Below are positions 51,501 to 54,362 of a stretch of 64,000 nt of DNA, one piece after another (positions within the stretch are counted from its first letter, which is position 1; each line of letters begins with the position of its first letter). The DNA lies in NCBI RefSeq assembly GCF_009914755.1, contig NC_060947.1; one strand, given 5' to 3'. Made by a program: the position numbers and the translations under genes. Source of the DNA: the human T2T-CHM13v2.0 reference genome, Homo sapiens. Under the pieces are notes generated by a model. That model made no database searches. It saw only the letters and a list, made by a program, of their open reading frames with translations, and had not been told where the DNA came from.

Positions 51501-54026
51501 TATTTTGAAGGGCTTTTTGTGTCTCTATTTCCTTCAGTTCTGCTCTGATTTTAGTTATTTCTTGCCTTCTGCTAGCTTCTGAATGTGTTTGCTCTTGCTT
51601 TTCTAGTTTTTTTAATTGTGATGATAAGGTGTCAATTTTGGATCTTTCCTGCTTTCTCTTGTGGGCATTTAGTGCCATAAATTTCCCTCTACACACTGAT
51701 TTGAATGTGTCCCACAGATTCTAGTATGTTGTGTCTCTGTTCTTGTTGGTTTCAAAGAACATCTTTATTTCTGCCTTCATTTCGTTATGTACCCAGTAGT
51801 CATTCAGGAGCAGGTTGTTCAGTTTCCATGTAGTTGAGCAGTTTTGAGTGAGTTTCTTAATCCTGAGTCGTAGTTTGATTGCACTGTGGTCTGAGAGAGA
51901 GTTTTTTATACTTCTGTTCTTTTACATTTGCTGAGGAGAGCTTTACTTCCAACCATGTGGTCAATTTTGGAATAGGTGTGGTGTGGTGCTGAAAAGAATG
52001 TATATTCCGTTGATTTGGGGTGGAGAGTTCTGTATATGTCTATTAGGTCCGCTTGGTGCAGAGCTGAGTTCAATTCCTGGGTATCCTTGTTGACTTTCTG
52101 TCTCATTGATATGTCTAATGTTGACAGTGGGGTGTTAAATTCTCCCATTATTAATGTGTGGGAGTCTAAGTCTCTTTGTAGGTCACTCAGGACTTGCTTT
52201 ATGAATCTGGGTGCTCCTGTATTGGGTGCATATATATTTAGGATAGTTAGCTCTTCTTGTTGAATTGATCCCTTTACCATTATGTAATGGCCTTCTTTGT
52301 CTCTTTTGATCTTTGTTGGTTTAAAGTCTGTTTTATCAGAGACTAGGATTGCAACCCCTGCCTTTTTTTGTTTTCCATTTGCTTGGTAGATCTTCCTCCA
52401 TCCTTTTATTTTGAGCCTATGTGTGTCTCTGTATGTGAGATGGGTTTCCTGACTACAACACACTGATGGGTCTTGACTGTTTATCCTATTTGCCAGTCTG
52501 TGTCTTTTAATTGGAACATTTAGTCCATTTACATTTAAAGTTAGTATTTTTATGTGTGAATTTGAACCTGTCATTATGATGTTAGCTGGTTATTTTCCTC
52601 GTTAGTTGATGCAGTTTCTTCCTAGTCTCTATGGTCTTTACATTTTGGCATGATTTTGCAGCGGCTGGTACCTACCGGTTGTTCCTTTCCATGTTTAGTG
52701 TCTCCTTCAGGAGCTCTTTTAGGGCAGGCCTGGTGGTGAGAAAATCTCTCAGCATTTGCTTTTCTGTAAAGTATTTTATTTCTCCTTCACTTCTGAAGCT
52801 TAGTTTGGCTGGATATGAAATTCTGGGTTGAAAATTCTTTTCTTTAAGAATGTTGAATATTGGCCCCCACTCTTCTGGCTTCCAGAGTTTCTGCCGAGAG
52901 ATCCGCTGTTAGTCTGATGGGCTTCCCTTTGTGGGTAACCCGACCTTTCTCTCTGGCTGCCCTTAACATTTTTTCCTTCATTTCAACTTTGGTGAATCTG
53001 AAAATTATGTGTCTTGGAGGTGCTCTTCTCGAGGAGTGTCTTTGTGACGTTCTCTGTATTTCCTGAATCTGAATGTTGTCTTGCCTTGCTAGATTGCGGA
53101 AGTTCTCCTGGATAATATCCTGCAGAGTGTTTTCCAACTTGGTTCCATTCTCCCCGTCGCTTTCCGATACACCAATCAGACATAGATTTGGTCTTTTCAC
53201 ATAGTCCCATATTTCTTGAAGGCTTTGTTCATTTCTTTTTATTCTTTTTTCTCTAAACTTCCCTTCTCATTTCATTTCATTCATTTCATCTTCCATCGCT
53301 GATACCCTTTCTTCCAGTTGATCGCATCAGCTCCTGAGGCTTCTGCATTCTTCACGTAGTTCTCGAGCCTTGGCTTTCAGGTCCATGAGCTCCTTTAAGC
53401 ACTTCTCTGTATTGGTTATTCTAGTTATACATTCGTCTAAATTTTTTTCAAAGTTTTTAACTTCTTTGTCTTTGGTTTGAATTTCCTCCTGTAGCTCGTA
53501 GTTTGATCGTCTGAAGCCTTCTTCTCTCAACTCGTCAAAGTCATTCTCTGTCCAGCTTTGTTCCATTGCTGGTGAGGAACTGCGATCCTTTGGAGGAGGA
53601 GAGGTGCTCTGCTTTTTAGAGTTTCCAGTTTTTCTGCTCTGTCTTTTCCCCATCTTTGTGGTTTTATCTACTTTTGGTCTTTGATGATGGTGATGTACAG
53701 ATGGGGTTTTGGTGTGGATGTCCTTTCTGTTTGTTAGTTTTCCTTCTAACAGACAGGATCCTCAGCTGCAGGTCTGTTGGAGTTTGCTAGAGGTCCACTC
53801 CAGACGCTGTTTGCCTGGGTATCAGCAGTGGTGTCTGCAGAACAGTGATTTTTCGTGAACCACGAATGCTGCTATTAGATCGTTCCTCTGGAATTTTTTT
53901 CTCAGAGGAGTACCTGGCCGTGTGAGGTGTTAGTCTGCCCCTATTGGGGGTGCCTCCCATTTAGGCTGCTCATGGTTCAGGGGTCAGGGACCCAGTTGAG
54001 GAGGCAGTCTGCCCATTCTCAGATCT
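48529..54026 (-). mobile_element. L1PA2/3-like element lacking the outer 5'UTR (left palindrome arm)
   Basis: ORF1 start at 53653, ORF2 start at 52574, 3'UTR and tail at 48529; only ~373 nt upstream of ORF1. Confidence 0.95.
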
Positions 54027-54362
54027 ACCTGACCCCTGAACCATGAGCAGCCTAAATGGGAGGCACCCCCAATAGGGGCAGACTAACACCTCACACGGCC
54101 AGGTACTCCTCTGAGAAAAAAATTCCAGAGGAACGATCTAATAGCAGCATTCGTGGTTCACGAAAAATCACTGTTCTGCAGACACCACTGCTGATACCCA
54201 GGCAAACAGCGTCTGGAGTGGACCTCTAGCAAACTCCAACAGACCTGCAGCTGAGGATCCTGTCTGTTAGAAGGAAAACTAACAAACAGAAAGGACATCC
54301 ACACCAAAACCCCATCTGTACATCACCATCATCAAAGACCAAAAGTAGATAAAACCACAAAG

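What the first reader, a model, noticed from the sequence alone, without database searches (positions are those of the whole stretch)
53981..54040. Fold-back junction with candidate microhomology at the palindrome centre
Seen: the spacer (gacccagttgaggaggcagtctgcccattctcagatcta) is simply the left L1's 5'UTR continuing; it then turns back as ...agatct-a-cctgacccc. The intact copy at 38449 continues agatctcc. That tcc end could pair with gga in gggtcaggga (53981-53990), and 53990 A still pairs with 54026 T. Inference: a break in the 5'UTR was followed by intra-strand fold-back priming on ~3 nt of homology over a ~36-nt loop, like the fold-back inversions of breakage-fusion-bridge cycles. Both arms lack the outer ~550 nt of the 5'UTR, including the sense promoter core and ORF0.
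Basis: partly seen in the sequence, partly recalled or inferred. Interest (0 to 1): 0.7.

Follow-up and report, generated by a model that had tools for sequence, protein, structure and literature searches.

The report
Near-perfect LINE-1 palindrome on human X
An 11-kilobase mirror-image repeat on the human X chromosome, made of dead LINE-1 retrotransposon DNA, has 4.5 kilobases of almost identical arms only 39 bases apart; it likely arose when a broken DNA end folded back and copied itself, and it would be a rare natural test of how long such normally fragile structures survive in people.

Summary
The junction is real. The inner arms (49451-53988 / 54028-58565) differ at 1 of 4,538 positions and share 132 private substitutions. 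The 39-nt spacer is the left L1's own 5'UTR up to 54026. The 3-nt microhomology is inferred, not present: 54027 is an A that fits neither parent. (1) A native hairpin is centred on the palindrome axis. (2) The native spacer ends on a 6-bp palindrome. (3) The outer ~900 nt are two separately aged L1 3' ends with identical patches, so there is a second, homology-based junction at 49450-49512. (4) An old host L1 runs collinearly across the whole structure, so both flanks were kept. Breakage-fusion-bridge is therefore not supported. Best reading (0.55): one local event between two head-to-head L1s about 1-5 kb apart, with 3' fold-back, 4.5 kb of self-copying, closure into the second L1 and loss of the DNA between. 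About 660 nt of 5'UTR is lost, not 550. Arm identity implies under about 1.8 Myr, or continuing conversion. GRCh37 is the same length here within 136 bp. No ape allele could be read. This is a known class of rearrangement with an unusually short surviving spacer.

The parts
48523..54026 (-). Left L1 (primate L1PA type; subfamily name recalled as long-5'UTR L1PA3/L1PA4), polyA at about 48523-48545, cut at position about 662 of the 5'UTR; likely donor of both arms
   Evidence: it carries a ~126-nt 5'UTR segment that the young L1 at chrX 55.99 Mb lacks
53989..54027 (+). 39-nt spacer: native left-L1 5'UTR to 54026 plus one base (54027 A) that fits neither parent
53997..54021 (+). Native imperfect hairpin inside the spacer (10 pairs, 3-nt loop); its inner stem 54003-54006/54010-54013 lies exactly on the palindrome axis
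54021..54026 (.). 6-bp self-complementary site on which the native spacer ends; axis of the rival 'perfect palindrome, then centre deletion' model
   Evidence: such hexamers end at 1.2-1.3% of L1 positions
53988..53990 (+). Template side of the candidate fold-back microhomology (pairs with 54028-54026; middle position mismatched)
54028..58565 (+). Inverted copy of 49451-53988; 1 difference (56675 vs 51341); ORF1 (ATG 54363) already broken by stops shared with the left arm
58504..58566 (+). Second junction: interval between the last shared private base (49512/58504) and the first left-right difference (49450/58566), in L1-L1 homology
58566..59488 (+). 3' end of a second, separately aged L1 of the same subfamily, with two tracts identical to the left arm (58770-59209, 1 difference; 59394-59473, none)
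47701..48527 (-). Old L1 piece into which the left L1 inserted; likely the inverted half of one 5'-inverted old element
   Evidence: 84.6% to L047
59481..59858 (+). Old L1 3' piece into which the right L1 inserted; likely the direct half of the same old element; 854 nt that lie between the two pieces in L047 are absent from the window
   Evidence: 83.7% to L047
47556..47705 (-). Older host L1, piece left of the structure (continues 41256-41392)
   Evidence: L048 positions 123-267
60034..60100 (-). Same older host L1 resuming right of the structure (continues 60939-61540), about 117 nt missing
   Evidence: L048 positions 385-451

Best explanation
This is an inverted duplication with an adjacent deletion, likely made in one local repair or replication event in which a 3' end in the left L1's 5'UTR folded back on itself, copied about 4.5 kb of that L1 and closed by homology into a second, oppositely oriented L1 nearby. 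Shown: the arms descend from one L1 copy; the spacer is that copy's 5'UTR; the outer ends are two separate insertions; host DNA between them is gone; both flanks are kept in order. Inferred steps: (1) two same-subfamily L1s sat head-to-head about 0.85-5 kb apart inside one old element, the right one possibly only a ~1-kb 5'-truncated copy; (2) on single-stranded DNA their 3' ends paired into a ~900-nt mismatched stem; (3) the loop was cut, or the fork stalled, at about 54026-54028; (4) the native 5'UTR hairpin brought the end next to 53988-53990, where 1-3 nt primed synthesis; (5) fill-in ran to the stem and joined at 49450-49512; (6) patchy mismatch repair or later arm-to-arm conversion made the two identical outer tracts. 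An inter-strand switch at a fork (leading to lagging) followed by L1-L1 recombination gives the same product and is counted under this reading. It is a mutational scar; no function is claimed.
For: Inner arms: 1 difference in 4,538 nt, 132 shared private substitutions and 8 shared indels against 19 close relatives; about 328 differences would be expected between two separate copies. Outer tracts 49450-49240 (15 of 204 scored columns differ) and 48802-48620 (33 of 178) carry private changes on each side. The identical patches are not chance (P 4e-13 and 0.003). A hairpin with 10 or more pairs centred within 2 nt of the window axis occurs in 1.2-2.5% of 39-nt L1 windows. 18 of 20 relatives continue with the bases that would complete a 3-nt match. 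Two unlinked breakpoints would fall within 38 nt of homologous positions about 1.2% of the time. Flanks are collinear. Published fold-back junctions show 2-8 bp of inverted microhomology, and 3 of 21 use oppositely oriented LINE/SINE homology (PMC3907307, passages).
Against: 54027 A fits neither parent, so a mutation or misincorporation must be assumed. The primer pairing is negligible at equilibrium, and a competing hairpin at 53981-53993 hides the template. The hairpin test is post hoc. The native spacer also ends exactly on a 6-bp palindrome (1.2% by chance), which favours the centre-deletion rival. Donor direction rests on the spacer alone: relatives show no subfamily split, left and right private counts do not differ (p=0.19), and a spacer can be flipped later by crossing-over between arms. 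Published ape tables mark 41191-48542 and 48755-49405 as human-specific, which this model does not explain. No outgroup allele was read.
Confidence: 0.55

Rival explanations
1. A perfect (zero-spacer) palindrome formed first, at the 6-bp self-complementary site 54021-54026, by hairpin capping or end-to-end pairing. It was then stabilised by an off-centre deletion of 32 nt from the right arm, with one untemplated base added by end joining. The outer junction is as in the best reading.
For: The native spacer ends exactly at the hexamer's end (1.2-1.3% by chance) and the arithmetic is 32 nt replaced by 1 nt. It explains the odd A without a mutation. Secondary widening of palindrome centres is proposed for human inverted CNVs (PMC10766186, passages and Discussion).
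Against: It needs two events at the centre. It leaves the on-axis hairpin (1.2-2.5%) and the 53990:54026 pair as coincidences.
Confidence: 0.2
2. Two long L1s stood head-to-head. An ordinary deletion removed both promoters and the DNA between them, and arm-to-arm gene conversion then made the inner 4.5 kb identical and keeps it so. The structure could then be older than the human lineage.
For: Two separate insertions and identical outer patches are shown. Only 2 differences in 5,058 homogenised nt are compatible with continuing conversion.
Against: Breakpoints at near-homologous positions have about a 1.2% chance unless the cut is made in a paired stem, which is close to the best reading. No alternation of donor is detectable in the inner arm.
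Confidence: 0.17
3. The palindrome is peculiar to the CHM13 cell line, or is an assembly or polishing artefact (fold-back reads, homogenised arms).
For: Arms are made wholly of repeat and are nearly identical. No reads or second assembly could be examined.
Against: The outer arms are mosaic and lead into distinct, collinear flanks. The window has no N. The GRCh37-to-CHM13 offset is 733,255 at RRAGB and 733,119 at UBQLN2, a net 136 bp over 808 kb (with coordinates from PMC5414091 supplement rows and a PMC5445258 table). This is indirect: an ancestral allele of equal length, or compensating indels, cannot be excluded.
Confidence: 0.04
4. It is the relic of a breakage-fusion-bridge cycle: a fold-back made a dicentric X that broke and healed.
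For: The centre looks like published fold-back junctions.
Against: Both flanks are retained in order. The duplication stops inside the same L1. The centromere is on the right, so the folded fragment as oriented has none. Interstitial inverted variants with intact ends need another route (PMC10766186 Discussion).
Confidence: 0.04

Closest known systems
Fold-back inverted duplications of Hermetz et al. 2014 (PMC3907307; passages read)
   Same: Inverted copy joined to a single-copy spacer; short inverted microhomology; in 3 of 21 junctions oppositely oriented LINE/SINE homology.
   Different: Their spacers are 766-70,466 bp, the duplications reach megabases, and they pass through a dicentric with terminal deletion, translocation or ring. 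Here the spacer is 39 nt, the copy 4.5 kb, both flanks are kept, and it sits in a reference genome.
Four-point template switch, type 3-2-1-4 (Loytynoja and Goldman 2017, PMC5453318; passages)
   Same: Order of switch points, an inverted repeat with a direct spacer, return to the original direction.
   Different: Their events are short local clusters. Here the copied tract is kilobases and the return is by L1-L1 homology with loss of more than 1.5 kb.
ODIRA-type inverted CNV with secondary repeat-mediated erosion (Brewer et al. 2024, PMC10766186; passages and Discussion)
   Same: A palindromic junction at a short interrupted inverted repeat; opposite repeats become direct after the duplication and recombine, deleting the DNA between.
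   Different: The authors expected short interruptions in humans but report that the human triplication junctions they found had much larger ones. Here a 39-nt interruption survives. No triplication or second short junction is seen.
Large X/Y palindromes (Makova et al. 2024, PMC11168930; passages)
   Same: Arms at least 98% identical on a sex chromosome; conversion-like patches.
   Different: Their definition needs arms of at least 8 kb and under 80% repeat. This one has 5.5-kb arms of pure L1 and no gene.
PATRRs and inverted-Alu fragile sites (review PMC7999016; passages)
   Same: Closely spaced inverted repeat able to form hairpins; fork stalling was reported for a 12-bp spacer and not, in eukaryotic cells, for a 52-bp spacer.
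   Different: Not AT-rich, arms roughly ten times longer, spacer between the two tested sizes and itself partly paired. No rearrangement at this site was found in the searches made.

Membership tests
Fold-back inverted duplication (Hermetz type) | Single-copy spacer continuous with the non-inverted copy | tested here: met
Fold-back inverted duplication (Hermetz type) | At least 2 bp of inverted microhomology at the spacer ends | tested here: inconclusive
   1 contiguous base, 2 of 3 with a mismatch; 3 of 3 only if 54027 was C
Fold-back inverted duplication (Hermetz type) | Dicentric intermediate with terminal deletion, translocation or ring | tested here: not met
   collinear host on both sides; centromere to the right
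Template switch 3-2-1-4 | Reverse-complement copy of sequence upstream of the first switch, spacer not inverted, return downstream | tested here: met
   judged from L1 relatives rather than from the ancestral allele
Template switch 3-2-1-4 | Derived state shown against an outgroup or alternative allele | not testable with these tools
   no ape or second human assembly is held; ape tables give intervals only
ODIRA product | Inverted triplication with two short interrupted-palindrome junctions around an origin | tested here: not met
   two copies and one short junction within the 84 kb examined; an eroded form cannot be excluded
Large X-chromosome palindrome (palindrover definition) | Arms of at least 8 kb, at least 98% identity, under 80% repeat | tested here: not met
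   arms about 5.5 kb and wholly L1
Twin-primed (5'-inverted) single L1 insertion | One polyA end, non-duplicated inverted and direct parts, one target-site duplication | tested here: not met
   two polyA ends in different sites and a duplicated body; the old host element does fit this pattern

The most novel reading that the evidence does not exclude
A human-lineage, population-shared 11-kb palindrome whose centre is an uneroded primary fold-back junction, placed by a hairpin native to the L1 5'UTR. It is closed by a second L1 in one step, kept identical by arm-to-arm repair, and acts as an unrecognised hairpin or cruciform fragile site at Xp11.21. It has escaped palindrome catalogues because it is pure repeat with a mid-sized spacer.
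Probability: 0.25. Interest if true: 0.75.

Novelty: new variant of a known kind. Interest (0 to 1): 0.52.

Why it matters
Long, nearly perfect inverted repeats with very short spacers are expected to be purged or widened. Sequenced human fold-back spacers were at least 766 bp (PMC3907307), and a model of human inverted CNVs predicts short primary junctions that its authors did not find among triplications (PMC10766186). A 39-nt junction with 2.6 kb of perfect arm in a reference X, probably also in GRCh37, would be a natural, genotype-able test of how such junctions form and how fast they erode in the human germ line. It falls outside three catalogue definitions read here: no spacer (PMC7680136 as described in PMC7999016), spacer under 9 bp (PMC12019632), and arms of at least 8 kb with under 80% repeat (PMC11168930). 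No gene lies in the window, so a phenotype is not expected; the interest is mechanistic.

Tried and rejected
Subfamily assignment of inner versus outer arm to find the donor: the 19 relatives show no correlated split; 1 of 20 fetched copies (L028) was left out of the per-site counts because its body is only about 83% identical. Equilibrium folding as support for the 3-nt primer: not supported. Recurrence of this junction elsewhere: none among 13 pattern loci or 40 scored candidates; other fold-back positions in L1 were not surveyed because the genome could not be scanned whole. A near-identical source elsewhere for the flanks or arm: none among the 40 candidates scored per search; best other hits 86%, 86%, 96% and 83%. 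Target-site duplication shared by the two 3' ends: none seen. KLF8 as the left anchor for the GRCh37 comparison: no printed coordinate found, so RRAGB was used; the USP51 anchor was not found in the stretch fetched. Literature: ten searches listed no paper on this locus by title or abstract start. Supplement searches for its coordinates: none in Porubsky 2023 (3 files); Yoo 2025 supplement unreadable; Logsdon 2025 file cut when stored and only the first hits shown, none on chrX, so polymorphism there is untested. Two papers on mouse palindrome centre deletion were not held, so that mechanism is cited from recall and from PMC10766186. Earlier scan findings were not available.

Full report
Observation. 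The window holds an inverted repeat with arms 49380-53988 and 54028-58636 and 39 nt between them; with the outer parts the self-match spans 48523-59488 at 98.7%. The arms are perfect for 2,647 nt from the centre. The spacer is the left L1's 5'UTR read on to 54026. The junction was not found elsewhere in the genome among the candidates scored.

The microhomology is weaker than stated. I fetched 20 close full-length L1 copies; 19 are 87-94% identical along the arm and one was dropped from the per-site counts. After the place of 54026, 18 of 20 read the two bases that would complete a 3-nt match, 19 of 20 have C at the place of 54027, and none has A. The mirrored arm also predicts C. So the window has 1 contiguous base, or 2 of 3, and the A needs a private change, a polymerase error or an untemplated addition. 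A 2-of-3 match arises at 6.4% and 3-of-3 at 2.0% of random registers. In relatives cut at the native end, the proposed pairs have a computed probability of 0.0003 or less, and another hairpin competes for the template.

Two features of the spacer were missed. First, it folds into a native 10-pair hairpin (53997-54021) whose inner stem lies exactly on the palindrome axis. Centred hairpins of that size occur in 1.2-2.5% of 39-nt L1 windows (a post hoc test). It would bring a 3' end at 54026-54028 next to 53988-53990. Second, the native part ends exactly on a 6-bp self-complementary site, which happens at 1.2-1.3% of positions. A perfect palindrome centred there differs from the window by 32 nt replaced with 1 nt. 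The first feature favours direct fold-back, the second a perfect palindrome later trimmed at its centre.

The lost 5'UTR is about 660 nt on the left and about 700 on the right, not 550. That the sense promoter core, antisense promoter and ORF0 lie in it is recalled, not tested. The element keeps a ~126-nt 5'UTR segment that a young L1 on X lacks; by recall this makes it the long L1PA3 or L1PA4 type rather than L1PA2. ORF1 and ORF2 are broken alike in both arms.

There is a second junction. Between 49451 and 53988 the arms differ at 1 of 4,538 positions and share 132 substitutions seen in at most 1 of 19 relatives, plus 8 indels: one L1 individual was copied. Outward of 49450 the two sides carry their own private changes (15 of 204 and 33 of 178 scored columns differ), interrupted by two identical patches (440 nt with 1 difference and 10 shared private bases; 80 nt with none) that chance does not give. 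So two separately aged L1 3' ends are present, and the switch lies at 49450-49512 (58504-58566). The donor cannot be told from subfamily markers or from private counts (p=0.19); only the spacer points to the left copy.

The flanks show what was lost. An old L1 runs collinearly across the structure: 41256-41392, 47556-47705, 60034-60100 and 60939-61540 match consecutive parts of one relative, with about 117 nt missing. Inside it, 47701-48527 (minus) and 59481-59858 (plus) are both about 84% identical to one other element and border an 854-nt stretch absent from the window; two loci were top hits for both pieces. I infer that they are the inverted and direct halves of one old 5'-inverted L1. The two young L1s then stood head-to-head at least 0.85 kb and probably under 5 kb apart. 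Both flanks are kept, and alpha satellite lies 2.8 Mb to the right, so a breakage-fusion-bridge route is not supported.

Mechanism. The most economical account is one event on one strand. The two L1 3' ends pair; the loop is cut or the fork stalls at 54026-54028; the end folds back with help from the native hairpin; synthesis copies 4.5 kb and joins the stem; the mismatched outer stem is repaired in patches. Fold-back between inverted repeats near a break is shown in yeast (PMC6103520, passages). A leading-to-lagging switch followed by recombination between L1s made direct by the duplication (PMC10766186) gives the same product. All six steps are inferred. I put 0.55 on this, 0.2 on centre deletion of a perfect palindrome, 0.17 on deletion plus conversion of two long L1s, and 0.04 each on artefact and on breakage-fusion-bridge.

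Age and sharing. With recalled rates of 0.4-0.8e-9 per site per year, 1 difference in 4,538 or 2 in 5,058 gives 0.1-0.5 Myr (upper bound about 1.8 Myr), against 24-53 differences expected for 6.5 Myr without conversion. The event is therefore either in the human lineage or the arms are still being homogenised. The GRCh37-to-CHM13 offset is 733,255 at RRAGB and 733,119 at UBQLN2 (GRCh37 positions from rows of the PMC5414091 supplement and a table in PMC5445258). GRCh37 is thus the same length across 808 kb within 136 bp, which suggests but does not prove that it carries the structure. Supplement tables of Makova 2024 list a 'human insertion' at window 48755-49405, ending at the edge of the identical arm, and human-specific unaligned stretches covering 41191-48542; they list no human-specific row at the centre or right arm. 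Two of three intervals I checked fit CHM13 coordinates closely and one was off by some tens of bases. The tables show that apes differ here but not how, and my model does not account for them.

Comparison and novelty. It works like a fold-back inverted duplication and has the 3-2-1-4 template-switch layout. It fails the dicentric/terminal-loss feature of the Hermetz class and the size and repeat limits of the X-palindrome class. Sequenced human fold-back spacers were 766 bp or more, and the longest palindrome in one spacer-free catalogue is 618 bp (PMC7680136, passage). Ten full-text searches and the supplement look-ups listed under Tried and rejected found no description of this locus. Subscription papers, unreadable or cut supplements, and databases such as non-B DB were not seen and may list it. 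What I saw of each paper: passages for PMC3907307, PMC7999016, PMC5453318, PMC12019632, PMC5445258, PMC6103520, PMC4057610, PMC7680136 and PMC2603318; passages and Discussion for PMC10766186; passages and supplement rows for PMC11168930; supplement rows only for PMC5414091 and PMC12350169; empty supplement searches for PMC10150506 and PMC12058530.

Verdict. A real and young palindrome; a new variant of a known kind of rearrangement; no function claimed. Interest 0.52, higher if population and ape assemblies show a surviving primary junction or instability.

Noticed in passing
window 41191-48542 and 48755-49405: Listed in Makova 2024 supplements as human-specific unaligned sequence and as a 'human insertion'. 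Yet the first stretch holds an old full-length L1 nested in a continuous older host and has no close copy among the candidates scored. This suggests deletions in other apes or an alignment effect; unexplained.
   Followed up: partly
window 47701-48527 and 59481-60033: Likely one old 5'-inverted L1 followed by about 170 nt of unrelated old L1 sequence, inserted into an older L1 with about 117 nt of target lost.
   Followed up: partly
window 48802-48620 vs 59210-59393: The G-rich L1 3'UTR tract that escaped homogenisation is unusually diverged on both sides (7.9% and 11.8% from the relatives' majority, against a 4.1% mean in relatives).
   Followed up: no
window 5812-47539: A dense stack of same-strand (minus) L1 copies of several ages, nested in each other; the palindrome's right arm and the 60101-60946 fragment are among the few plus-strand L1 pieces.
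   Followed up: no
L035, window-equivalent 66727-74000: A rearranged young L1 cluster just right of the window, with short inverted pieces and a 5'UTR fragment between ORF2 parts.
   Followed up: no
G000:C11:6907691-6907746: An unrelated short inverted repeat with about 20-nt arms found by the pattern search.
   Followed up: no
window 61320-61700: A local tandem duplication of about 170 nt in the old host L1 (61539-61700 repeats L048 positions 842-1002).
   Followed up: no
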